Assembly (NCBI GenBank): GCA_963849825.1
Contig: CAWKIK010000003.1
Location: 179,700-243,699, forward strand
Direction: 5' to 3'
Source of the DNA: an uncultured Gammaproteobacteria bacterium
GTDB taxonomy: Bacteria > Pseudomonadota > Gammaproteobacteria > JASBUN01
DNA length: 64,000 nt
Shown piece by piece: positions 2,355-25,335 of this stretch. The notes beneath the pieces were generated by a model. It had not been told where the DNA came from, searched no databases, and was given only the letters and a program-made list of their open reading frames with translations. The position numbers and the translations under genes were made by a program. The stretch's first letter is position 1. Each line of letters starts with the position of its first letter.

Positions 2355-3023
2355 GTGACAACCATTGCGGTAATGCAGCCCTATTTCGCCCCATACGCAG
2401 GCTATTTTCGTTTATTCGCCGCCGCAGACCTGTTCGTGGTCTACGACTGCGTCCAATTTCCCCGGCGCGGCTGGGTGCACCGCAACCGGTTGGCCGACGC
2501 GCAGCACAATTTACGCTGGCTGACGTTACCCGTTGCGTCGTGCCCTCGCGAGACCGCCATCTTCGAATTGCAGTTCAGAGTCGACGCGGCGCAACGGATG
2601 CGGCACCAGGAACGCCGCTTCCCCTGCCTTTCGCGCGGCCTTCCTGCGGCATTGCAGGCTTCTTTCGCCGATCTCAGCGGCAGTCCCGTCGACTATATCT
2701 GCAGGCTGCTGCGCGTCATTTCGCGTTTGTTGGGAGTCGAGCGCCCGATCATGCGTTCCAGCGAACTGGAGTTGCATCCCGCCCTGCGCGGCGAGGAACG
2801 CGTCCTCGAAATCGTCCGCCGTCTGGGCGCCACTCGTTATATCAACGCTCCCGGGGGCCGCGCGCTGTACTCGGCGCGCGCGTTTGCGCAGTCGGGCGTG
2901 GCATTGAGTTTTCTTTCCGACTACCACGGCGCCAAGACCAGCATCCTGGAACGTCTGGCTATGGAACCCAGCGCGGCCGTGGCCCGGGAAATCCAGCACA
3001 ACCTGGAGCTATGCGCAGCGTGA
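2355..3023 (+). CDS. WbqC-like family protein (sugar-modification cluster protein of unknown biochemical function)
   Basis: MQPYFAPYAGYFRLF...VVYDCVQFPRRGWVHRNRL matches the conserved WbqC N-terminal signature. GTG 2355 has a GGAGG SD; ORF track start 2283 is probably an over-extension. Confidence 0.65.
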   Translation: MTTIAVMQPYFAPYAGYFRLFAAADLFVVYDCVQFPRRGWVHRNRLADAQHNLRWLTLPVASCPRETAIFELQFRVDAAQRMRHQERRFPCLSRGLPAALQASFADLSGSPVDYICRLLRVISRLLGVERPIMRSSELELHPALRGEERVLEIVRRLGATRYINAPGGRALYSARAFAQSGVALSFLSDYHGAKTSILERLAMEPSAAVAREIQHNLELCAA

Positions 3024-3901
3024 AGGCACAAATTCGAACTGAAGCCGAGTCCAGCCCGCAGCAGATCCGAAGAGATCACTACGAACGCAACCGCGCCTAT
3101 TACGACCGCAACGCCGGGCGTTATGAGGCAGCGTCGTGGTATTACTTCAACCGCTACAAGCGAAACGCGGTCCGCGCCGAGCTGAAAAACTGTCTCCGCC
3201 GGGTAAGTTCGCTTTCGCCTCTGCGAATTTTGGAAATCGGTCCGGGAACCGGGTACTTGCTGGACCACCTGCTCGACCAAACCACACGATCTGTGGCTTA
3301 CACGGCACTGGAACATTCAAGCGCCATGGCCGAGACCCTGCGCCAGCGGTTCTCTCACCGTTGCCGCCACTTCGAGGTAATCACGTGCAGCGCCAGCGCC
3401 GAGAATGTACGCTTCGGCGACGGACCATATGACATCATCATGGGCAGCTCGATACTGCATCACCTACCTGATTACGCAGAAGTGATTCCCACACTGGCTG
3501 ACCAACTTTCGCCCGGCGGCGTATTGTATTTCGTTCGCGAACCCATTCATCGGGATGATTGTGCGCCGGCTTCGTTCTTGGCCGACTTTCTTGAACGCCG
3601 CTACGCGGCGATCAACCGCATACTCATGCGACCGGCGATGCAACGACGTTTTTGGCCGCGCAAGGTGAAAGCCGAGGACGCCCGGGACGTCGCGGTGCAT
3701 ATGTTCGGAGACGGCGTATCGATGCGGCCATTCCAGCAGCTCGCGCGCCGACCCGAATTCACGCTTATCGGCCAACGCAAATACAACCGTCGGCTTTCCG
3801 CGGCATTGTGCTATCTCGAAAATGCGTGGCTCAAACGCTTGCGCAAGGATGTGTTCGGCAACACGCTTTATAGCGTCATCGTGCAGCGGCGGCCGTCATG
3901 A
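3010..3901 (+). CDS. Class I SAM-dependent methyltransferase
   Basis: LEIGPGTGYL glycine-rich SAM motif, DIIMGSSILHHL motif II. ATG 3010 overlaps the upstream stop by 14 nt. The ORF-track N-terminal 470 nt (2540-3009) is an alternative frame of the WbqC gene. Confidence 0.7.
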
Positions 3902-5025
3902 ACCGACCGGACCCTACCCCCGCATCCGTCTGTGCCGTGCCCCTAGGTTATGCGCGGCCGTTGCTTCCGGAACCTAGCGCATGGCTTCCATATCTGCATG
4001 CCGCGTACAGTAGCCGTCATTTCACCAACTTTGGGCCTGTGAATGCGCGCTTCGAACGTGCTTTGACGCAGCGATTCGGTCAAGGCCGCGAAGCGGTAAC
4101 GATGTCAAGCGCTACGGCAGGGCTCACCGCGGTGCTACAGGCATTGGAAATCAACGGGCCGGTAGTAGTTCCCTCTTTCACTTTCGCCGCCACAGCCCAA
4201 GCGGTGCTGGCGGCAGGATGCACCCCCGTGTTGTCCGAGTGCAGCCAGGAAACCTGGGAGCTGGATGCCGAACATCTCGGTCGTACGATCCAGCGCAACC
4301 GTGCCGCCGCAGTGATTCATGTACGTACTTTCGGTTTTGGCCACGACCTTGACCCGATTGCGGCGCTTTGCGCGTTCCACGGTGTACCGCTGATCGTGGA
4401 CGCGGCGTCCGCCCTCGGCGGACAGATCGACGGCCCGGCTCATGTGTGCGGACAGGGAACGGTGGAAGTCTGTTCGCTCCATGCGACAAAGGTATTTGCA
4501 ATCGGCGAAGGAGGAGTCGTGTTCGCGCCGCCTTCACTAGCTGCCGCCATCCGCCGGGCGAGCAACTTCGGTCTTGATCGAGGCGACGTCATAAGCGCGG
4601 GCACAAATGGTAAACTGAGCGAATTTCACGCCGCGATTGGGCTCAGTGTGCTCGACCGAATCGACCACGATGTTCGGCATCGACGTCGAATCGCTGCACG
4701 CTTCCATGCGGAGTTGCGCCGCTTGCCCGGTGTCGAACACTGCTGGCCGGCCGCGATCGCACCGTGGCAGGGATATCCGTTGCTTTGCGCGCCGAGGGTG
4801 GATGTCGCGGCACTGATCGCAGAGGCGGGCGCACGGGGCGTGGAACTGCGACGTTATTATTACATGCCCTTGCACCGCACGCGCATGTTCGCTCGGTTCG
4901 CCGATGGAGAACTGCCCGTGACGGATCGGTTGTCGTTCGGCATGGTGTGCTTGCCGGTTTATTCGGATATGACAGAAGCCGAGCAACAGCGGGTACTTGA
5001 TACGCTGTGTCCACTGCTCGGCTGA
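3898..5025 (+). CDS. DegT/DnrJ/EryC1/StrS-family PLP-dependent sugar aminotransferase
   Basis: Family-typical length and motifs (VDAASALGG, SLHATKVFAIGEGGVV with catalytic Lys). ATGA start/stop overlap with the methyltransferase gene. Confidence 0.85.
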   Translation: MNRPDPTPASVCAVPLGYARPLLPEPSAWLPYLHAAYSSRHFTNFGPVNARFERALTQRFGQGREAVTMSSATAGLTAVLQALEINGPVVVPSFTFAATAQAVLAAGCTPVLSECSQETWELDAEHLGRTIQRNRAAAVIHVRTFGFGHDLDPIAALCAFHGVPLIVDAASALGGQIDGPAHVCGQGTVEVCSLHATKVFAIGEGGVVFAPPSLAAAIRRASNFGLDRGDVISAGTNGKLSEFHAAIGLSVLDRIDHDVRHRRRIAARFHAELRRLPGVEHCWPAAIAPWQGYPLLCAPRVDVAALIAEAGARGVELRRYYYMPLHRTRMFARFADGELPVTDRLSFGMVCLPVYSDMTEAEQQRVLDTLCPLLG

Positions 5026-5036
5026 ACCGGCATTGC

Positions 5037-5732
5037 CTACACCGTGATCGCCAATTCCCGCTGCGCCCGTTGCCAATCCTCCGGAACGCCGATATCGATG
5101 AAATAGGCATCCGACCGATGCACCAAGGGATGAATACTGGTTATATTCGGAGCCACCAGATCCTGCTCGAAGGAAAATGCCTGGTCATGCCCGTAATCGT
5201 CCAGTAGCCAACGCGCCGCACAGTAGCAGCCGCCATTTATCCAACCGGGCACCCCGGCCTGCTTTTCGGCGAAACCCTGCACCACCCCGAAACGATCGAA
5301 AAGCACCTGGCCATAACGAGCGCAATCCGGCACCCGTTTCACCGCCATGGACAAGCGTGCCGCGACACTGCGGTGGGCGGTGTACATGGCATCGACGTCC
5401 ACGGGAAACAACGTGTCGCCGTTGACCACCAACGCATGGTCGTCTTCCAGTAACTGGAATGCCTGGCGAATGGCGCCTCCGGTCCCCAGTGGGTGCTCTT
5501 CGACGGAATAGCGTAGCGTGATGCCGTGGGCGCGGTTTCCGAACCGCGCACGGATCATTTCCCACTGATAGGACACGGCCAGCACCGATTCTGTCACGTC
5601 TTGACTGCCAAGCCAGGCGAGTACGTGGTCCAAAAAAGGTCGCCCCGCGACGGGAGCGAGAGGCTTGGGAACATCAGGAACCGTTTGCCGCAGCCGGGTT
5701 CCCAATCCTCCGGCCAGTATGATCGCTTGCAT
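5037..5732 (-). CDS. Sugar-1-phosphate nucleotidyltransferase, D-glycero-D-manno-heptose-1-phosphate guanylyltransferase (HddC)-like
   Basis: N-terminal MQAIILAGGLGTRL nucleotidyltransferase signature, ~230 aa. In operon with gmhA, GHMP kinase and a GDP-sugar 4,6-dehydratase. Confidence 0.8.
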   Translation of the reverse strand: MQAIILAGGLGTRLRQTVPDVPKPLAPVAGRPFLDHVLAWLGSQDVTESVLAVSYQWEMIRARFGNRAHGITLRYSVEEHPLGTGGAIRQAFQLLEDDHALVVNGDTLFPVDVDAMYTAHRSVAARLSMAVKRVPDCARYGQVLFDRFGVVQGFAEKQAGVPGWINGGCYCAARWLLDDYGHDQAFSFEQDLVAPNITSIHPLVHRSDAYFIDIGVPEDWQRAQRELAITV

Positions 5733-6330
5733 GTCTGTTCTCCTTGCCGAACATTGCCTCTTCCATCAAGCCGCACAGCACATGGCCCAGCACGATATGA
5801 CATTCCTGGATACGCGCCGTCTCCTGCGCCGGAACGCGCACGCAAAAGTCACATAGAGCCCGCATGCGGCCGCCATCGGCGCCGGTCAAGCCCACGGTGC
5901 GAATATCGCGAAATCGGGCCGCTTCCAAGGCTTCGAGAATATTGGGTGAGTTGCCCGAGGTGCTCAGTGACAGCAGCACGTCGCCCGGCCGGCCATGGGC
6001 TTCGACCTGCCGGGCGAAAACCTTTTCGTAGCCGTAATCATTACCGACCGCCGTTAGAATGGACGTATCGGTAGTCAGCGCGATGCCGGCCAGTCCCGGC
6101 CGATCGAAAGCAAAACGGCTGACCAATTCCGCCGCCAGATGTTGGGCATCGGCGGCACTGCCGCCGTTACCGGCAAACAAGATCCGATTGCCCCGGCGCA
6201 AGGCTTCGATGCATTCTTGCGCAACCCGTTTGACCAAGCCGATCAAGGCGCCGTCATCCAGCATCCGCGTTTTTACCAATATGGAATCGGCGATCTGGGC
6301 CCGAATGCTGTCTTCCATCACACGTTCCAT
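5674..6330 (-). CDS. gmhA: SIS-domain sedoheptulose-7-phosphate isomerase (GmhA)
   Basis: IEALRRGNRILFAGNGGSAADAQHLAAEL, typical GmhA SIS motif. 3' end overlaps the hddC-like start by 59 nt. Confidence 0.8.
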   Translation of the reverse strand: MERVMEDSIRAQIADSILVKTRMLDDGALIGLVKRVAQECIEALRRGNRILFAGNGGSAADAQHLAAELVSRFAFDRPGLAGIALTTDTSILTAVGNDYGYEKVFARQVEAHGRPGDVLLSLSTSGNSPNILEALEAARFRDIRTVGLTGADGGRMRALCDFCVRVPAQETARIQECHIVLGHVLCGLMEEAMFGKENRHASDHTGRRIGNPAAANGS

Positions 6331-7433
6331 CCCTGCGCCCCCCCTTTGGTGAAATGGAACCGATAGGGACTGCCGCCGAAGGGTTTTAGCGCTTCGGTGA
6401 CTTCGAGCTTCCGGGTCGGCTCGACAAACAGCATCATGAATCCGCCACCCCCAGCACCCGATAATTTCGCCGCTAGCGCGCCGGCGCCCATTGCGGTTTC
6501 GTAAATGTATTCGACCAGCGGATTGGATACCGAGCTCGACGTATGCTTCTTTGCCTGCCAGGACTCGGCCAGAATGTCCGCCATGCGCCGCACGTCGGAC
6601 TTGAGCAGCGATTCTTTCATGGCCTGGGCCGCTTCCTTGACCGAATGCATGGCGGTTAGGAAATCGCTGTTGCCGGTGGATGCAATCTTCGACTGGTCAT
6701 CGATGATTTTCGCCGATTCCCTGGATAGACCGGTGAAGAACAGCATCATGTGGCACTCGAGTTCATTGACGATTTCGTCTCGGATGCGTAGCGGATTGAC
6801 GATCACGCGGTCATCGCTGTGAAACTCGATGAAATTGAAACCTCCGAAGGTGGCGGCGTATTGATCCTGCTTGCCCCCTGCAAGAGCGCAGTCGTGACGT
6901 TCGATGCGGTAGGCGAGTTGGGCCAGATCGTACTCCCCCAGCGGCAGCTGCAGCAGCTGCTGATAGGCGCGCAATATCGCTACCACCATGGTCGAGGAGC
7001 TGCCCAGACCGCTGCCCGGAGGCGCATCGGAGTAAGTGGTCACTTGCACCGGCAACGGCTCGCCATCGTTGAACATGGCCACCACGCTATTGTAGATCGC
7101 CTTGTGCAAACGCAACTCGCCTTCCACGGCAAGCTCGGGCACAGCTTCGCTTTGCCATTGCTTGCCGAGGTCTTTGGCGTCGAATCCGACCTGGGCGTCC
7201 GCGCGCAGCTCGATGGTGCAATATGCGTGCATGGAAATGGTGGCATTGAGCACGCAGCCGCCATAGGTTTCGCTGTACGGCGACACGTCGGTGCCGCCGC
7301 CTGCGAGTCCGAGACGCAGCGGCGCCCGGGCGCGCACTTTGAGCGCCGGTTCAGCGCGCTTTCGGATTTCTACGCCCGGCATATCGGCGTCACTCGCCAA
7401 AGCGGTTTTGGGAATGCGGACGATCGATGCCAT
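6318..7433 (-). CDS. GHMP-family sugar kinase, D-glycero-D-manno-heptose-7-phosphate kinase (HddA)-like
   Basis: PPGSGLGSSSTMVVA GHMP ATP-binding motif, ~370 aa; 13-nt overlap with gmhA. Confidence 0.8.
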   Translation of the reverse strand: MASIVRIPKTALASDADMPGVEIRKRAEPALKVRARAPLRLGLAGGGTDVSPYSETYGGCVLNATISMHAYCTIELRADAQVGFDAKDLGKQWQSEAVPELAVEGELRLHKAIYNSVVAMFNDGEPLPVQVTTYSDAPPGSGLGSSSTMVVAILRAYQQLLQLPLGEYDLAQLAYRIERHDCALAGGKQDQYAATFGGFNFIEFHSDDRVIVNPLRIRDEIVNELECHMMLFFTGLSRESAKIIDDQSKIASTGNSDFLTAMHSVKEAAQAMKESLLKSDVRRMADILAESWQAKKHTSSSVSNPLVEYIYETAMGAGALAAKLSGAGGGGFMMLFVEPTRKLEVTEALKPFGGSPYRFHFTKGGAQGWNV

Positions 7434-7464
7434 GGCGTCACCTTTTCGTTAACCAGCGGCAATA

Positions 7465-8478
7465 TCACCGGGACCAGAACCGGCTGCCTCTACCGACGCG
7501 GGCGCGCCAGTAGTCGAGCAAATCATTCATGGTGGTTTCGAAGCCGATCTCCGGCTGCCAGCCGGTATGTTGCGTGAATTTGCTCGTGTCGGGCACTTGC
7601 AGATCGGCATCGATGGGCCGCAAACGTTCGGGATCGGTCTCCACCCGAATGTCCTTGCGCGTCGAGCAGCTCAGCAAATAGTCCAGCATTTCGCGCACGC
7701 TGCAGGTATAGGCCCCGCCGATGTTGTAATACTGACCGGGTGTGGGATTCACGGTCACCAGCAGGTAATACGCGCGCACAGCATCGCGCACATCGGCCCA
7801 GGTGCGCAGGGAGTCGAGATTGCCGGTCTTGACCACCGGCGGAATCAGATCCGCTTCGATCATGGCGATCTGCTTTGCGAACGTGGACTCGGCGAACACG
7901 TCGCCGCGACGCGGTCCGGTGTGGGTAAACATGCGCGTAGTCATCACCTTCATGCCATAGGCTTCGCCATAGAAGCGGCCAATCAGGTCGGTGCCGACTT
8001 TGGAAATGGCATAAGGGGACGCCGGGTGAAAGGTGACCTCCTCGTGAATAGGCAGCTTTTCGCGCGGCACCCTGCCAAACACTTCCGAAGACGCACATAC
8101 GTGCACCACCGGGTCCAGTTCGCTCAAACGAATTGCTTCCAACAGATTGGACGTGCCGGTGACATTGGTCTGTAAGGTATCCGCCGGTGAATCGAAACTG
8201 GTTTTTGGGTAACTCTGGGCGGCGAGATGAAACACATAGTCCGGCCGTGACAGTTTGAGCACATTCAACAGCGAACCGAAATCGTTCAGATCGCCATAAT
8301 GAAAAAACACACGCTCGCGGGCGTTCACCCGCTCCAGTAAATGCTCGACGTTGTCCATGGGGCTGCGCCAGCGACACATGCCGTGCACTTCCCAATCGGT
8401 GTTGACCAGCAGATAGTCGCTCAAATGCGAACCCACCATGCCCGTGACACCTGTGATCAAGGCGCGTTTAGAAGTCAT
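7465..8478 (-). CDS. GDP-sugar 4,6-dehydratase (Gmd / GDP-manno-heptose 4,6-dehydratase DmhA family)
   Basis: N-terminus MTSKRALITGVTGMVGSHLSDYLL...EVHGMCRWRS is near-identical in pattern to Gmd (ALITGVTGQDGSYL...EVHGI.RR.S). Start taken at internal ATG 8478; ORF-track start 8568 over-extends. Confidence 0.85.
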   Translation of the reverse strand: MTSKRALITGVTGMVGSHLSDYLLVNTDWEVHGMCRWRSPMDNVEHLLERVNARERVFFHYGDLNDFGSLLNVLKLSRPDYVFHLAAQSYPKTSFDSPADTLQTNVTGTSNLLEAIRLSELDPVVHVCASSEVFGRVPREKLPIHEEVTFHPASPYAISKVGTDLIGRFYGEAYGMKVMTTRMFTHTGPRRGDVFAESTFAKQIAMIEADLIPPVVKTGNLDSLRTWADVRDAVRAYYLLVTVNPTPGQYYNIGGAYTCSVREMLDYLLSCSTRKDIRVETDPERLRPIDADLQVPDTSKFTQHTGWQPEIGFETTMNDLLDYWRARVGRGSRFWSR

Positions 8479-9346
8479 GGACCTGTTGGCCTCCGTTTGC
8501 ACCGATCCCGAATTCCAGGCGCATGGCTTCTTGCAAACTGCGTGGTCGACGTCCGAGCAGCGCAGCAAGGTAGCGCGAATCCATATCGATCACTCGGGGC
8601 CGGGCTCGGTAAAAGTCTTCTCCTGGATCGCGCACCGTAAACCGCAAGGCTGGCGCACATAGAGCTTGAAAGGACTTGGCGATGTCGGCGCGCGAGTAAA
8701 GATTTTCTCCGCCGACATTGACCCAAGGCGCGTCGATCGTGAGCCAGCGTTCGAAGACCGCAAACACGGCATCGACTACGTCATCGATATGCACCACGCG
8801 TCGGTCCAGTGGAACAAACACGTCGGCCTCTTCGCCCCGCTCGGCGCATTGCGCCAAAAGGGAGGTAAAGCGATCGTCCCGAGAAAACACGTAAGACAAG
8901 CGCAATGCCTTGAACCGCTCGCGACGTTGAAACTGCGCTTCAACCTCCCGTTTCATGTGCGCGTACTCGCCCACCGGCTGCGGCGATGTCCATTCGTCGC
9001 ACACCTCCGAGCGTTCGCCGTACACCGTATCGCTAGATGCGAACAACACCCGCGCGCCGCGTGCCAACGCCCCTTCGATGAACGCCATGGTGCCGTCCAC
9101 ATTCACCGAGCGGCAGTGCTGAGGGTCTTTACGACACTGATCCGGGGCCGAAATCGCGGCCAGCAACACGACGCGGGAATCATCGTCCAGTTGTGCATAA
9201 TCGAACGCCTCAGGGCGTGCCAGATCCAAAAGCAGGTCGCCGTCCCTGGGGTGGGAAGACGTAAATCTGACGGCGATTTGCCGGTGGGCGGCCGCGGCGG
9301 CAAGCCGGCGCGCAATGCAACCGTTCTTGCCGATGATCACCAACAT
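8468..9346 (-). CDS. NAD(P)-dependent sugar-nucleotide reductase/epimerase (extended SDR; Rmd/DmhB/RmlD-like)
   Basis: N-terminal MLVIIGKNGCIARRL Rossmann motif, ~290 aa. First gene of the heptose operon directly downstream of flgL. Confidence 0.7.
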   Translation of the reverse strand: MLVIIGKNGCIARRLAAAAAHRQIAVRFTSSHPRDGDLLLDLARPEAFDYAQLDDDSRVVLLAAISAPDQCRKDPQHCRSVNVDGTMAFIEGALARGARVLFASSDTVYGERSEVCDEWTSPQPVGEYAHMKREVEAQFQRRERFKALRLSYVFSRDDRFTSLLAQCAERGEEADVFVPLDRRVVHIDDVVDAVFAVFERWLTIDAPWVNVGGENLYSRADIAKSFQALCAPALRFTVRDPGEDFYRARPRVIDMDSRYLAALLGRRPRSLQEAMRLEFGIGANGGQQVHDF

Positions 9347-9515
9347 CTCTTGGAATCACTCATATGCTTTATTTTTCCGTCACTTAAAAGCGTTCCCGAA
9401 CGGTTGCCAGCGACCCGTGGAACAGAGCAGAGCCGCGCCGCCGTCCTTACCGACATGCGAAGCAATTGGCGTGCCATGGAATACATCACCGACGGCTAGG
9501 GCACCGCCGCCGCGC

Positions 9516-12419: not shown

Positions 12420-13391
12420 TCATAGATTGAGCGCTCCGAGCGCGTCCCGAAGCGTATCGCCGTCGAGAATATTTTTGATTTTGCTGGCATAACCGGGGTC
12501 CGTCGCATAGCCTGCCCGCTGCAATCCGTCGACAAAGCCATGGGCGTCGCTGGCGCCGACGGCGTTCTGGTAACGCGGGTTGGTTTTCAGAAACCGCACA
12601 TAGTCGTCGAAGCTCTCTCCCAGCGATGGATAGGCGCGGAAAGCCGCGCGTTCCTGGGCCATGACGCCGCCGCGGAACTCCAAGGTCTGTGCCGCCACCT
12701 TGTCGCCATTCCAACTGTCGTCGGCTTTGATCCCGAACAGATTGTTGGAGCTGACGCCGTCGGCGCGCGGCAGAATGTGCTGTCCCCAGCCGGTCTCCAG
12801 CGCCGCCTGGGCAACCAAAACTTCCGGCGCGATCCCCAGCGCGGCCGCGGCGGTCTTGGCGTGATCCCAGATGGCTTGTACGAACTGCAGCGGCTGGTCG
12901 AACCACCGCTTCGCGTCGGCGTCGCTTGCGCTTGCCGCGTTGGCCTTCGGGTCTGCCAGCGCCACCAGCGGTTGCGTGCTGTCGACACCCAACAGCGACT
13001 TGGCGGCCGCGTCGGTCGTACGCAGCAAGGTCGCCGCCAAACTGCCGGTGACATTCTCTTTTGCAGATGCATCGGAGTTGCCTGCGTCGGGCAGATTGCT
13101 GCCCAGTTGCCGCACCATGGCGTCGGCGATGCCAAGGCCACCCTTCTCCGCCAGACTCAGCGATATCTGGCTGTCGAACATGTCGCGGTACATGCCGCTT
13201 TGTTCACTGTCGAACAAGCCGTCGCCCATGCTCGCTTCGCGCATGCTTTTGAGCACCATTTGCATGAAGATGGCTTCGAATTGCTTGGCTACCGCCTGCA
13301 GGCTGCCTTTCGGATCCTGTTTCGCGTCACGCCGCAGCGCGGCCAGACCGTTGAAGTCGGTGTAGACAGCAGTTTGTGGGTCGTTCGCCAT
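12420..13391 (-). CDS. flgJ: Flagellar rod assembly protein / peptidoglycan hydrolase FlgJ
   Basis: N-terminal rod-binding motif AVAKQFEAIFMQMVLKSMREA plus C-terminal glucosaminidase motif AQAALETGWGQ...NNLFGIKA. The ORF-track N-terminal 105 aa is read-through of a tandem repeat and is not FlgJ. Start placed at ATG 13391 (or 13409). Confidence 0.85.
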   Translation of the reverse strand: MANDPQTAVYTDFNGLAALRRDAKQDPKGSLQAVAKQFEAIFMQMVLKSMREASMGDGLFDSEQSGMYRDMFDSQISLSLAEKGGLGIADAMVRQLGSNLPDAGNSDASAKENVTGSLAATLLRTTDAAAKSLLGVDSTQPLVALADPKANAASASDADAKRWFDQPLQFVQAIWDHAKTAAAALGIAPEVLVAQAALETGWGQHILPRADGVSSNNLFGIKADDSWNGDKVAAQTLEFRGGVMAQERAAFRAYPSLGESFDDYVRFLKTNPRYQNAVGASDAHGFVDGLQRAGYATDPGYASKIKNILDGDTLRDALGALNL

Positions 13392-13427
13392 ATCGCTTCC
13401 CGTTATCATTGCGCCTTGTCGGTGCAG

Positions 13428-13700
13428 GCCGCGTCGGGTCCGCGCTGCGCGCTTGACCCGACCTACGTGTTTGATCCGGCTTGCGTGCCGATCCTTGGCT
13501 TCGCCGCGTCGGGTCCGCGTTGCGCGCTTGACCCGACCTACGTGTTTGATCCGGCTTGCGTGCCGGTCCTTGGCTTCGCCGCGTCGGGTCCGCGCTGCGC
13601 GCTTGATCCGACCTACGCGTTTGATCCGGCTTGCGTGCCGGTCCTTGGCTTCGCCGCGTCGGGTCCGCGCGGCGCGCTTGACCCGACCTACATGTTTGAC
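13428..13700. repeat. Tandem repeat, 75-bp unit x ~3.6 copies, each unit containing an 8-bp-stem hairpin (GTCGGGTC...GACCCGAC). Lies in the flgI-flgJ intercistronic spacer.
   Basis: Units start at 13428, 13503, 13578 and 13653 with >90% identity. The unit length (25 codons) keeps an open frame, which caused the spurious FlgJ N-terminal extension. Confidence 0.9.
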
Positions 13701-13734
13701 CCGCCTCCGGGCCTGCAGGGCTGGACGCAACCGT

Positions 13735-14880
13735 TCAAATCACAATCAGTTCCGCGCGCAACGCACCCGCTTCTTTCAGTGCTTCGAGAATCGCCACCAG
13801 ATCACCGGGAGCTGCGCCGACCCGATTCACCGCGCGTACGATTTCATCCAGTTCCACACCCGGGTTGAACAGGAACATGCGTTTGGCTTCCTGAGTGATC
13901 TGGACGTCCGATTGCGGCACTACAGCGGTTTGGCCGCCGGACAACGGCGCCGGTTGGCTGACCACAGGACGCTCGGTAATGGTGACAGTGAGACTGCCGT
14001 GGCTGACTGCGGCCGGTTGCACGCGCACGTGACTGCCGATCACCACAGTACCCGTTCGCGAATTGACCACGATGCGGGCCGGCGCGTCGCCCGGTTCGAC
14101 GTCGATATTTTCGAGCAGGGAAACAAATGCCACGCGCTGGCCGGGATCGCGGGGCGCGCTCACTTGCACCGATGTCGCATCCAAGGGTCGTGCACTGCCG
14201 GCGCCGACGGTGCGATTGATTGCAGTCGAGACGCGGTTGGCAGTGGTGAAATCCGAGTCGTTGAGATTGAGAACAATGTAATCCCCGCGATCGAACGGAT
14301 TTTCCACTGCACGTTCCACGGTAGCGCCGTTCGGGATCCGCCCGGCGCTGGGAATGTTGACCGTGACTTTCGAGCCGTCATTACCTGAAGCGCCGAAGCC
14401 GCCGACGATCAGGTTGCCCTGGGCGATGGCATAGATGCGGCCGTCGGCACCTTTGAGCGGCGACATCAACAAACTGCCGCCGCGCAGGCTCTTGGCGTTG
14501 CCCAACGAGGAAACCGTGACATCGATGGTCTGGCCCTGCTTGGCGAAGGGCGGCAATTCGGCGTGGATGGCGACCGCAGCGACGTTCTTCAACTGCGGTT
14601 TGACGTTGTCTGGCACCACAATGCCGTAGCGCGCCAACATGGCCTTCAAGCTCTGCACCGTGAACGGGGTCTGGGAAGTCTGGTCGCCGGAACCGTCCAA
14701 ACCGACCACCAAACCGTATCCCACCAGTTGATTGACCCGCACGCCGGCTACCGACGCCAGGTCTTTGACCCGCTCGCCGTAGGACAAGGTGCTGTAGAAC
14801 AACGAAGCGCACATCAGCACCGCGCTTATCAACGTAGCGCTCAGCAGTAGCAGACCCCGGCCTTCGACTCGTTCAGACAT
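13735..14880 (-). CDS. flgI: Flagellar P-ring protein FlgI
   Basis: Signal peptide then [31 protein letters not shown]. Start at ATG 14880 with GAGGGGG SD; ORF-track start 15045 is an over-extension into flgH. Confidence 0.9.
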
Positions 14881-20071: not shown

Positions 20072-20086
20072 GCAACTGCCGTGCCA
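20072..20086 (-). promoter_or_regulatory. Sigma-54 promoter (perfect TGGCAC-N5-TTGC) upstream of flgB
   Basis: Minus-strand TGGCACGGCAGTTGC, ~40 nt upstream of the flgB ATG. Confidence 0.6.
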
Positions 20087-20357
20087 AATCTTATTTTATC
20101 GATTTTTCAGGCGGTTGAGTGCCGTCATGAGCGGCATGCCGGCCTCGGATCGGCGAGTGTTTGCCATCCTGGCGGCAATTGCGGCAATTGCGGCAAGCCG
20201 GGCGGGGCGTGCGTGGCCGAACGCCACGGCGGGAACCTGAGCGCGGAAACGCGGCTCGCGCGAATCGACGGTATTCGTCGGAAATCGGGATTCAGCGCTG
20301 CGGGAGATCGAATAACACGACCGGCAAGGTTGCCGAGCGCGAACAAGGCCGGGGCCG

Positions 20358-21236
20358 TCAGCCTTTCAGGCGATACACAACACCACCGCCGTGACGCACC
20401 ATCTCGAATGCGTCGCTAAGACCGGTAATGGACTCGGAGCCACCGAGGAACAGGTAGCCACCAGGGTTGAGCGCGCGGCCTAACCGCTCCAGGATGTCGC
20501 GCTTGGAATCGCCTGAAAAGTAGATCAACACATTGCGGCAAAAGATCACGTCGAAGCGCCCCAGCAAGGCATAGCTTTGCAGTAGGTTCAGCTCGCGGAA
20601 CTGCACCCGCTTGCGAACCGCGGGAATGATTTCCATCATATCGCCTTCGAGTCTGAAGTAACGCTGTTTACGCTCGAGGGACAGACCCCGCGCCATGGAA
20701 AGCGAATCGTAGCGCCCTGAGCGGGCTTGATTCACGATCGCCGGAGAAATATCCGTGGCAACGATGGCGACTTCACCGCTCATTACCCCCGGATTGGACA
20801 TCTGGAACTCGTGCACGATCATGCTGATCGAATAGGGTTCCTGGCCCGAGGAACAGGCCGCGGACCATACCCGGATCGGGTTTCGCCGCAATTTGCCGAG
20901 TTCGGGGAAGATCAGCTCCTTCAACGTCGCAAACGGATGGTTGTCGCGGAACCAGGATGTTTCGTTGGTGGTCATCGCTTCGACGATACGGCTGCGCAAC
21001 GGGGTTTGCGCATCGCGCTTGATTGCGGCGACCAAGTCTGCGAACGATTTCAGATCGAACTCGTGCATGACGCGGCTGAGACGGCTGGACACGAGGTATT
21101 GCTTGTTTTCGCCCAGGACGATGCCGCACGCTTTCTCAAGAAAAGTGCGAAAATCCCGATATTCTTCCGGGCTGATCACGGTCGCGGACAAAGTCGTGTT
21201 CCGTTGCTGAAGGTTAGAAATCACGCGCATGCACAA
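20358..21236 (-). CDS. cheR: Chemotaxis protein methyltransferase CheR
   Basis: CheR N-terminal helical domain plus SAM-MTase core (IWSAACSSGQEPYSI), 292 aa. Confidence 0.88.
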   Translation of the reverse strand: MCMRVISNLQQRNTTLSATVISPEEYRDFRTFLEKACGIVLGENKQYLVSSRLSRVMHEFDLKSFADLVAAIKRDAQTPLRSRIVEAMTTNETSWFRDNHPFATLKELIFPELGKLRRNPIRVWSAACSSGQEPYSISMIVHEFQMSNPGVMSGEVAIVATDISPAIVNQARSGRYDSLSMARGLSLERKQRYFRLEGDMMEIIPAVRKRVQFRELNLLQSYALLGRFDVIFCRNVLIYFSGDSKRDILERLGRALNPGGYLFLGGSESITGLSDAFEMVRHGGGVVYRLKG

Positions 21237-25128: not shown

Positions 25129-25204
<76 letters not shown>

Positions 25205-25258: not shown

Positions 25259-25335
25259 GCCCTTGTAGCTCAGCTGGATAGAGCAATCGCCTCCTAAGCG
25301 GTAGGTCGCAGGTTCGAATCCTGCCAAGGGCACCA
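25259..25335 (+). tRNA. tRNA-Arg (anticodon CCT)
   Basis: GCCCTTG-TA-GCTC-AGCTGGATA-GAGC-A-ATCGC-CTCCTAA-GCGGT-AGGTC-GCAGG-TTCGAAT-CCTGC-CAAGGGC-A-CCA. Confidence 0.9.

What the first reader, a model, noticed from the sequence alone, without database searches (positions are those of the whole stretch)
13428..13700. Frame-preserving 75-bp tandem hairpin repeats inserted between flgI and flgJ
Four consecutive copies (the last partial) of a 75-bp unit, each carrying an 8-bp inverted repeat (GTCGGGTC...GACCCGAC) around a GC-rich loop, occupy the flgI-flgJ intercistronic spacer of the flgFGHIJKL transcript. The unit is exactly 25 codons and stays open in the flgJ frame. The ORF track therefore fuses it to flgJ as a 105-aa Arg/Lys-rich extension (HVGRVKRAARTRRGEAKDRHASRIK x4). 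The element is either REP-like with an mRNA-stability or processing role that could set FlgJ:FlgI stoichiometry, or a genuinely translated basic repeat extension of FlgJ if an upstream start is used. Copy number may vary between strains.
Basis: seen in the sequence. Interest (0 to 1): 0.5.

Follow-up and report, generated by a model that had tools for sequence, protein, structure and literature searches.

The report
REP hairpin array between flgI and flgJ
The 75-bp tandem repeat is a cluster of a common selfish bacterial DNA hairpin (a GTAG-type REP element) copied four times between two flagellar genes; it is non-coding, varies in copy number between sister species, and has led a gene caller to give FlgJ a false 113-residue extension.

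Summary
The repeat is real: window 13428-13703 holds 3.7 copies of a 75-bp unit at 95% identity. The flagellar genes lie on the minus strand. On the mRNA strand each unit is GTAG + GTCGGGTC + a 14-nt GC loop + GACCCGAC, followed by a 41-nt linker with a second small hairpin. That is the signature of a GTAG-tagged repetitive extragenic palindrome (REP).

The same REP occurs at many loci in two sister genomes (soil MAGs) and in Lysobacterales and Hyphomicrobiaceae. In two Hyphomicrobiaceae loci it lies next to a REP-associated tyrosine transposase gene (it flanks the gene on both sides in one).

The flgI-flgJ site carries a different number of REPs in each relative:
- none in two relatives (12- and 33-nt spacers);
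- one in two others;
- four in this window;
- five, plus a ladder of half-REPs, in the closest sister.

The FlgJ extension is an artefact. No homologue has it. The sisters have an in-frame stop or a 74-bp period. Codon-position GC is non-coding. Four of the six frames are open anyway, because the spacer has few T.

The most likely effect, inferred from E. coli REP arrays, is to stabilise upstream flgI mRNA and attenuate flgJKL. This was not tested.

Verdict: an ordinary new member of a known kind, with low interest.

The parts
13735..14880 (-). flgI (P-ring protein), 381 aa; stop codon TGA at 13737-13735
   Evidence: Pfam PF02119 FlgI, E=1.3e-146. Same length as the genes called in L001 and L002.
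13692..13734 (-). 5' flank of the array. It holds a decayed left arm of an inverted REP (GTTGCGTCC, about 13723-13731), a small hairpin, and GGGTCAAACAT just before the first GTAG.
   Evidence: Homologous to the intact inverted REP that follows the flgI stop in L001 (CGTTGCGTCCGGTCCTGCGGACGTTGACGCAACCTAC) and to the L002 flank. Aligned in A1.
13658..13691 (-). REP copy 1: GTAG GTCGGGTC AAGCGCGCCGCGCG GACCCGAC
   Evidence: RNA hairpin -20.9 kcal/mol.
13617..13657 (-). Linker 1 (41 nt) with a second small hairpin, GACCGGC-ACGCAA-GCCGGATC
   Evidence: Folds. Pair counts.
13583..13616 (-). REP copy 2, with one stem mismatch (GTCGGATC)
   Evidence: Hairpin -14.2 kcal/mol.
13542..13582 (-). Linker 2
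13508..13541 (-). REP copy 3
   Evidence: Hairpin -18.3 kcal/mol.
13467..13507 (-). Linker 3
13433..13466 (-). REP copy 4, the last one and the closest to flgJ
   Evidence: Hairpin -20.9 kcal/mol.
13392..13432 (-). Unique 3' flank. It holds the flgJ ribosome-binding region (GGGAAG, 13396-13401) and an alternative in-frame ATG at 13407-13409.
   Evidence: Sequence. Conserved in L001 and L002. Not sequestered by the last REP in the fold.
12420..13391 (-). flgJ proper, 323 aa (rod-binding and glucosaminidase domains)
   Evidence: Pfam PF10135 and PF01832 lie at residues 161-423 of the fused ORF. The closest homologues, P0001 and P0002, are 323 aa.
13392..13730 (-). Spurious 113-codon N-terminal 'extension' of flgJ (TTG start), present in a public gene call (P0123)

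Best explanation
The array is a head-to-tail cluster of four GTAG-tagged repetitive extragenic palindromes (REPs). It arose when a single REP sitting in the flgI-flgJ spacer was duplicated in tandem together with about 41 nt of its own flanking DNA. The likely mechanism is slipped-strand or unequal recombination; action of a REP-associated transposase is possible but not shown. The array is non-coding.

No sigma54-type or sigma70-type promoter and no intrinsic terminator was found in the spacer; sigma28-type promoters were not searched for. It is therefore transcribed as part of the flagellar rod/ring operon mRNA. There it can form four strong hairpins (-14 to -21 kcal/mol) and three weaker ones. 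The flgJ ribosome-binding site, 30-40 nt downstream of the last REP, stays free.

Shown here: identity as a REP, tandem origin, non-coding status, and copy-number variation between sister species.

Inferred by analogy with E. coli REP arrays inside operons: the hairpins block 3'-5' exonucleases and partly attenuate read-through. That would favour flgI (about 26 subunits per flagellum) over flgJ/K/L, and would replace the tight translational coupling seen in relatives with a 12-nt spacer.

My estimates are about 0.9 that it is a REP-derived non-coding tandem cluster, and about 0.45 that it measurably shifts the flgI:flgJ expression ratio. Any such effect is a by-product of selfish or neutral amplification, not a conserved design.
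For: - Anatomy: GTAG head, 8-bp stem, structured 14-nt GC loop, four copies in one orientation.
- Structure: 93% of cells are paired on the unit alignment, against 25-42% when the partners are slid. The stem pair C-G in the window is U-A in L001.
- Covariation: among 104 hits to the left-arm 18-mer that have a right arm, left Y and right R covary (40 C-G, 59 T-A, 5 other).
- Dispersal: the scan of genome contigs gave more than 116 loci. These include several loci in the sister MAGs MFD01721.bin.1.74 and MFD05684.bin.1.125 and at least 20 in one Lysobacterales MAG.
- Other head-to-tail arrays in the sister genome have periods of 73, 93 and 135 nt.
- A transposase gene lies next to the same REP (flanked on both sides in L105): L105 matches NCBIfam NF047646 at 1.2e-57 and PDB 4er8 (TnpA-REP) at 5e-38; L114 matches NF047646 at 2.5e-44.
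- Orthologous site series: 12-nt and 33-nt spacers without a REP (L119, L120); one REP (L121, L002); four (window); five plus seven half-REPs plus one inverted REP (L001).
- The linkers of the window and L001 are homologous to each other and resemble the 5' flank of the single-copy REP.
- Not coding.
- No sigma54 or sigma70 promoter and no T-tract terminator in the spacer.
[quoted passage not shown] REP325 inside the E. coli yjdMN operon lowers the downstream gene about 8-10-fold and stabilises the upstream one (bioRxiv 10.64898/2026.03.23.713779).
Against: - No other REP of this family occurs in the 64-kb window, so high copy number in this genome itself is not shown. The genome is absent from genome contigs.
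- No REP-associated transposase was found in the window or in about 60 kb of sister-genome loci.
- Head-to-tail REP pairs are reported as rare in most genomes (PMC3733652).
- The spacer RNA is G-rich (C/G 0.90) and structured, which is a poor Rho entry site.
- The regulatory effect rests wholly on analogy. Relatives work with 0 or 1 copy.
Confidence: 0.8

Rival explanations
1. The repeat is translated. FlgJ starts upstream (TTG 13730) and carries a 113-residue Arg/Lys-rich repeat extension.
For: The frame is open from 4 nt after the flgI stop to the flgJ ATG. A public gene call (P0123, 436 aa) uses this start.
Against: - None of the 120 best homologues has the extension.
- In L001 and L002 the flgJ-frame ORF starts only 6 codons above the ATG; upstream of that the frame is closed by a stop. 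The L001 period is 74.
- GC by codon position is non-coding.
- Four of six frames are open by composition alone.
- No Pfam match.
- No protein cluster in 5.8 billion sequences matches the repeat translated in any of the four open frames.
- There is no Shine-Dalgarno sequence before the TTG, whereas GGGAAG precedes the conserved ATG.
Confidence: 0.03
2. The array is a purely neutral passenger. It is a REP-derived minisatellite tolerated in the spacer, with no measurable effect on flgI or flgJ expression.
For: Presence, absence and copy number differ freely among close relatives. The flgJ ribosome-binding site is not occluded. The E. coli study stresses that REP effects depend on context and that many REPs show no half-life effect (bioRxiv 10.64898/2026.03.23.713779).
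Against: Four hairpins of -14 to -21 kcal/mol in 343 nt of untranslated intercistronic RNA are the kind of structure that stalls exonucleases and polymerase in tested cases. The whole-spacer fold has z = -3.1.
Confidence: 0.4
3. The array acts at the DNA level, as a binding platform for nucleoid or topology proteins (gyrase, IHF/HU, Pol I) or as a substrate for a REP-associated transposase, not through the mRNA.
For: These interactions are reported for E. coli REP clusters (background summarised in PMC2817692 and PMC3733652). The same REP lies next to a REP-associated transposase gene in L105 and L114.
Against: No such protein site can be tested here. The recent E. coli work found no chromosome-compaction role for REP325 (bioRxiv 10.64898/2026.03.23.713779). 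No transposase gene was found near this array.
Confidence: 0.1
4. The array is an assembly artefact: the repeat copies were created or miscounted by the assembler.
For: The window appears to come from a metagenome-assembled genome. Copy number cannot be checked without the reads.
Against: - The copies differ from one another by point substitutions, which a spurious duplication would not produce.
- An independent assembly of a sister species has a homologous array at the same site.
- The sister MAGs come from deep Nanopore long-read sequencing (PMC12313526; names). A 276-bp array lies well within single reads.
Confidence: 0.03

Closest known systems
GTAG-tagged REP families (Di Nocera, De Gregorio and Rocco 2013, PMC3733652), especially the GTAG-3/GTAG-14 architecture that includes the E. 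coli REP
   Same: - Terminal GTAG and an 8-bp GC-rich stem.
- Unpaired dinucleotide (AA), then a self-complementary GC-rich loop (GCGC-GCA-GCGC).
- Sub-families that differ by compensatory stem changes.
- Extragenic position.
- Clusters made of 'singletons reiterated in tandem along with flanking DNA'.
- From my own memory, the E. coli consensus GTAGGCCGGATAAGGCG...CGCATCCGGC has the same layout.
   Different: I could not see the paper's Figure 1 consensus sequences, so assignment to a numbered family is not made. Here all copies are head-to-tail, an arrangement the paper calls rare as dimers. High copy number in this genome itself is not shown.
E. coli BIME-2 arrays, e.g. REP325 between yjdM and yjdN (bioRxiv 10.64898/2026.03.23.713779)
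   Same: Several regularly spaced REPs sit between two co-directional genes of one operon and are transcribed with them. In that case the array acts as an upstream mRNA stabiliser and a partial terminator for the downstream gene.
   Different: BIMEs alternate REP orientation with defined linker motifs. Here the four REPs share one orientation, with a 41-nt linker that carries its own small hairpin. No expression data exist for this locus.
REPIN-RAYT systems (PMC3116915, PMC2817692)
   Same: The same REP head-and-stem sequence flanks a REP-associated tyrosine transposase gene in Hyphomicrobiaceae locus L105 and lies about 0.8 kb from one in L114. Insertion sites are polymorphic between sister species.
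   Different: A REPIN is two inverted REPs. The window array has none: only a decayed remnant of an inverted partner next to the flgI stop, which is intact in L001. No transposase gene is seen in this lineage's fetched DNA.
Stenotrophomonas maltophilia SMAG repeats (GTAG families 6-9 in PMC3733652)
   Same: GTAG-headed palindromes in a related gammaproteobacterial group, found as singletons, dimers and larger groups in intergenic spacers.
   Different: Stem and loop sequences differ, and SMAG loops are short.

Membership tests
REP (GTAG super-family) | Short (20-40 nt) imperfect palindrome able to form a stem-loop | tested here: met
   A 34-nt unit with an 8-bp stem plus a 4-bp inner stem. ΔG is -14 to -21 kcal/mol. 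97% of cells are paired in that helix.
REP (GTAG super-family) | Conserved GTAG tetranucleotide at one end | tested here: met
   All four copies, and all copies in L001 and L002, start with GTAG. L121 has CAAC in that position.
REP (GTAG super-family) | Extragenic location | tested here: met
   The array lies between the flgI stop (13735) and the flgJ ATG (13391). Sister copies lie between called genes.
REP (GTAG super-family) | Many copies dispersed through the same genome | tested here: inconclusive
   There is only this one locus in the 64-kb window, and the rest of the genome is not available. Sister MAG MFD01721.bin.1.74 has at least 5 separate 8-kb stretches with about 40 GTAG hairpins, and one Lysobacterales MAG has at least 20 loci.
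REP (GTAG super-family) | Sub-families kept palindromic by compensatory changes | tested here: met
   Left Y and right R covary: 40 C-G, 59 T-A, 5 other. Other stems include GTTGCGTC/GACGCAAC and GATGGGTC/GACCCATC.
REP (GTAG super-family) | Cognate REP-associated tyrosine transposase (RAYT) gene flanked by the REP | tested here: inconclusive
   Found for the same REP in L105 and L114 (Hyphomicrobiaceae): NF047646 at 1e-57 and 2.5e-44, and PDB 4er8 at 5e-38. None in the window or in the sister-MAG loci. The whole genome is not searchable.
BIME (E. coli type) | Regularly spaced REPs in alternating orientation | tested here: not met
   Spacing is regular (75 nt), but all four REPs are on the same strand. 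A mixed-orientation cluster exists only in L001 at 2362-2943.
REPIN | Two REPs in inverted orientation forming one long hairpin | tested here: not met
   There is no inverted partner in the window, only a decayed left arm at about 13723-13731. The partner is intact in L001.
Coding tandem repeat (FlgJ N-terminal domain) | Conserved in homologues, coding-type codon composition, frame kept in relatives | tested here: not met
Intrinsic (Rho-independent) terminator | GC hairpin followed by a U tract | tested here: not met
   No terminator-like site on the minus strand in 13000-14200. Each REP is followed by GCGGCGAAGCC.
Known structured RNA family (Rfam) | Match to a covariance model | tested here: not met
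   Nothing at the gathering threshold. At E≤10 there is only one chance hit, to a snoRNA model.
CRISPR array | Repeats separated by unique spacers | tested here: not met
   The 41-nt linkers are near-identical to one another.

The most novel reading that the evidence does not exclude
The copy number of the REP unit at this one site (0, 1, 4, 5 and more across sister species) acts as an evolvable 'dial'. It would set how much flgJ/K/L message survives relative to flgF-I, so that selfish REP amplification is repeatedly co-opted to retune flagellar subunit stoichiometry. The head-to-tail arrays and the 19-nt half-REP ladder in L001 could be footprints of transposase-catalysed re-insertion next to an existing GTAG.
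Probability: 0.15. Interest if true: 0.4.

Novelty: new member of a known kind. Interest (0 to 1): 0.17.

Why it matters
The main value is for annotation. The array has already produced a wrong 436-aa FlgJ in public protein collections, because GC-rich, T-poor REP arrays are open in most reading frames.

It also offers a clean natural series at one orthologous operon spacer in sister species: 0, 1, 4 and 5 REP units. That series could be used to test how REP copy number affects expression within an operon, a question still debated for E. coli.

It does not point to a new kind of element or mechanism.

Tried and rejected
- A strict 34-nt pattern in genome contigs found nothing. The window's genome is not among the species representatives.
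- Exact look-ups of the window's FlgJ (323 aa), of the fused ORF and of P0123 found no contig on record, so the rest of this genome could not be reached.
- A protein search with the repeat translated in its four open frames, meant to catch spurious ORFs over other arrays, gave no hit at E≤0.001.
- Rfam gave nothing, at gathering or at permissive thresholds.
- The linker motif CGGCACGCAAGCCGG looked a little like a sigma54 -24 element. It lacks the -12 GC at the right spacing, and the consensus scan finds no site in the spacer. No sigma70 promoter was found either.
- A literature search for the REP sequence itself returned only chance primer matches.
- CRISPR, attC site, terminator and riboswitch readings were rejected on anatomy.
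- tblastn for a REP-associated transposase, first with an E. coli YafM sequence recalled from memory and then with the validated L105 protein, found none in the window or in the sister-MAG loci.

Full report
**Observation.** Tandem Repeats Finder reports one outstanding array in the 64-kb window: 13428-13703, period 75, 3.7 copies, 95% matches, no indels. The repeat finder confirms 75-nt spacing and an 8-bp inverted repeat GTCGGGTC/GACCCGAC with a 14-nt loop in each unit. The 34-nt core occurs four times with at most 1 mismatch, against 0 expected in shuffles.

The genes are on the minus strand. flgI is 13735-14880 (Pfam FlgI, 1.3e-146). flgJ is 12420-13391 (rod-binding and glucosaminidase domains). 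The spacer between them, 13392-13734, is 343 nt.

**Anatomy on the mRNA strand.** Each unit reads GTAG-GTCGGGTC-AA-GCGC-GCA-GCGC-G-GACCCGAC, 34 nt in all. It is followed by a 41-nt linker, GCGGCGAAGCCAAGGACCGGCACGCAAGCCGGATCAAACAC, which folds into a second, weaker hairpin. The four main hairpins have ΔG of -20.9, -14.2, -18.3 and -20.9 kcal/mol. The whole spacer folds with z = -3.1 against shuffles.

There is no T-tract after any hairpin and no terminator-like site on this strand. There is no sigma70-like promoter and no sigma54 consensus in the spacer. The operon's sigma54-type promoter lies upstream of flgB, at 20072-20086(-). The spacer is therefore most simply read-through RNA of the flagellar rod/ring operon. 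Rfam has no match.

**Not a FlgJ extension.** The ORF 12420-13730 (436 aa) does run through the repeat, and this call exists in public collections as P0123. Five lines of evidence argue against translation.
- All 120 best FlgJ homologues are 285-359 aa and cover only the C-terminal 69-76% of the fused ORF. The closest two (92% and 90% identity) are 323 aa.
- In both sister loci the flgJ-frame ORF begins only six codons upstream of the ATG. The L001 repeat has a 74-nt period, which cannot keep a frame.
- GC at codon positions 1/2/3 is 0.74/0.61/0.69 in the extension, against about 0.60-0.65/0.43-0.52/0.73-0.78 in flgE, F, G, I, J and K.
- The mRNA strand of the spacer has only 25 T in 343 nt, so four of six frames are stop-free throughout. 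The only stops in the repeat units themselves (a few more lie in the unique flanks) come from the TAG of GTAG on the mRNA strand, and on the opposite strand from the TGA in the complement of the stem-loop junction GGGTCAAG. Being open in the flgJ frame therefore needs no selection.
- The extension matches no Pfam family. Its four open-frame translations match no protein cluster.

**Relatives at the same site.** Two sister contigs carry the same flagellar cluster at about 88-91% nucleotide identity. They belong to the MAGs 'uncultured Gammaproteobacteria bacterium' MFD01721.bin.1.74 (L001) and MFD05684.bin.1.125 (L002). These isolate names are those of the Microflora Danica long-read (Nanopore) soil and sediment survey (PMC12313526).

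| Locus | FlgJ identity | flgI-flgJ spacer | REP content |
|---|---|---|---|
| L119 | 68% | 12 nt | none |
| L120 | 68% | 33 nt | none |
| L121 | 71% | 70 nt | one hairpin GTTGGGTC...GACCCAAC, no GTAG head |
| L002 | 90% | 121 nt | one REP |
| window | - | 343 nt | four REPs |
| L001 | 92% | 580 nt | one inverted REP just after the flgI stop, seven copies of a 19-nt REP 5' half, and five 73-75-nt units |

In the L001 units the stem is GTTGGGTC/GACCCAAC, a compensatory C-G to T-A change relative to the window.

An alignment of the units (A1) shows that the linkers of the window and L001 are homologous to each other. It also shows that they resemble the 5' flank of the single-copy REP in L002 and in the window. 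The unit is therefore 'REP plus a piece of its own flank', duplicated in tandem. On that alignment 93% of cells pair in the two-hairpin structure, against 25-42% when the partners are slid. The rows are related tandem copies, so this supports the structure without proving selection for it.

- It found further loci in both sister MAGs.
- It found at least 20 loci in one Lysobacterales MAG.
- It found many loci in Hyphomicrobiaceae, Devosia and Nevskia.
- Of 136 distinct hits, 104 have the right arm GACCCNAC within 45 nt. The variable left-arm base covaries with its partner: 40 C-G, 59 T-A, 5 other (Fisher p about 1e-23, not corrected for relatedness).
- Most of the 32 hits without a right arm look like chance matches inside genes.

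In about 45 kb of sister-genome sequence, which was selected for carrying the motif, there are about 40 GTAG hairpins of several stem sub-families. They include further head-to-tail arrays:
- a 93-nt period at L029 2174-2560;
- a 73-nt period at L029 6120-6500;
- a 135-nt mixed-orientation cluster in the L001 cheR-flgB spacer, absent from the window and L002.

In Hyphomicrobiaceae locus L105, REPs with the same head and stem flank a 181-aa gene on both sides. That gene matches NCBIfam NF047646 'REP-associated tyrosine transposase' (1.2e-57, 193.9 bits against a cut-off of 80) and the E. coli TnpA-REP structure 4er8 (5e-38). L114 has a second such gene. I found these genes using an E. coli YafM sequence recalled from memory as a probe. 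The family assignments come from the tools.

**Comparison with the literature.** The survey of GTAG-tagged REPs describes these features (PMC3733652):
- a terminal GTAG and 6-9-bp stems;
- sub-families with complementary stem changes;
- for GTAG-3/GTAG-14, unpaired di- or trinucleotides followed by self-complementary GC-rich loops;
[quoted passage not shown] The orientation here is therefore the less common one, though it recurs in this lineage.

For function, the closest tested case is REP325, in the spacer between yjdM and yjdN in E. coli. Deleting it raised the downstream gene about 8-10-fold and lowered the upstream transcript about 3-fold at the native locus, with partial Rho dependence. 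The authors stress that such effects depend on context (bioRxiv 10.64898/2026.03.23.713779).

**Mechanism proposed.**

Shown:
- a REP landed in, or was inherited at, the flgI-flgJ spacer of this clade;
- it was amplified in tandem with its flank, to different extents in each species;
- it is not translated.

Inferred:
- on the operon mRNA, the four GC hairpins act as barriers to 3'-5' decay, and possibly as partial attenuators;
- this would favour flgF-I over flgJKL;
- flgJ then starts from its own unobstructed ribosome-binding site instead of being coupled to flgI, as it is in L119.

The direction of the effect would fit the known subunit numbers. From general knowledge of the flagellum, the P ring has about 26 FlgI, and only a few FlgJ are needed.

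Against a designed role: relatives have 0 or 1 copy, and the spacer RNA is G-rich and structured, a poor Rho-loading site. I put about 0.9 on the identity and about 0.45 on a measurable expression effect.

**Limits.**
- The window's own genome could not be searched beyond these 64 kb.
- Within the window this is the only REP locus.
- No REP-associated transposase gene was seen in this lineage's fetched DNA.
- Copy number cannot be verified without reads. However, the sequence differences between copies and the independent homologous array in L001 argue against an artefact.

**Verdict.** The 'translated extension' half is an annotation artefact. This is a new member of a well-described kind of element and of low interest. 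It is useful mainly as an annotation warning and as a natural copy-number series for testing REP effects inside an operon.

Noticed in passing
L001 2362-2365, compared with window about 20360-20365 (minus strand) and L002 about 3262-3267: In the sister genome a REP is inserted exactly at the end of cheR, and the TAG of its GTAG head serves as the cheR stop codon (...CTG AAA GCG TAG, against ...CTG AAA GGC TGA in the window and L002). It opens a cluster of about 600 nt of mixed-orientation REPs (135-nt period) that the window and L002 lack.
   Followed up: partly
L001 9479-9618: Seven tandem copies of a 19-nt unit made only of a REP 5' half (AAGCCAC-GTAGGYYGGGTC), with no right arms, lie just upstream of the five full units. 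This may be a slippage product or a transposase-cleavage footprint. It remains unexplained.
   Followed up: no
window 20072-20086 (-) and 20172-20196: A sigma54-type promoter (TGGCACGGCAGTTGC) lies upstream of flgB and is conserved in L001 and L002. About 100 nt further upstream, a 9-nt repeat GCGGCAATT x2.8 forms part of a conserved palindrome (TTGCCGCAATTGCCGCC-AGG-GCGGCAA). The window has one more 9-nt unit than its sisters. This is a candidate enhancer-binding-protein site.
   Followed up: partly
window 2540-9476: Downstream of flgL the window is not syntenic with L001 or L002. A sigma54-like promoter (9462-9476, minus strand) precedes sugar-nucleotide genes: an RmlD/epimerase-like gene, a GDP-mannose-dehydratase-like gene, a GHMP kinase, an SIS isomerase and a nucleotidyltransferase. 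Further on, on the opposite strand, lie a DegT aminotransferase gene and a methyltransferase gene. Together these look like a variable flagellin-glycosylation or heptose-derivative island.
   Followed up: partly
window 12420-13730 (-); protein P0123: Public collections (NCBI/ENA) hold this flgJ as a 436-aa protein that starts in the REP array. This is a mis-called start. It is hidden inside a 90% cluster whose representative is a normal 323-aa FlgJ.
   Followed up: yes
window 25129-25204 and 25259-25335 (+): Two adjacent tRNA genes, tRNA-Ala(CGC) and tRNA-Arg(CCT), lie near the flagellar cluster.
   Followed up: no
L029 2174-2560 and L073 3320-3440, 4340-4500: A REP sub-family in the sister genome carries an insertion of about 17 nt in its loop (GCGTTTATGCCCCCCGGGTAC) and is itself amplified in a 93-nt head-to-tail array. 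REP loops in this lineage can evidently accept extra sequence.
   Followed up: no
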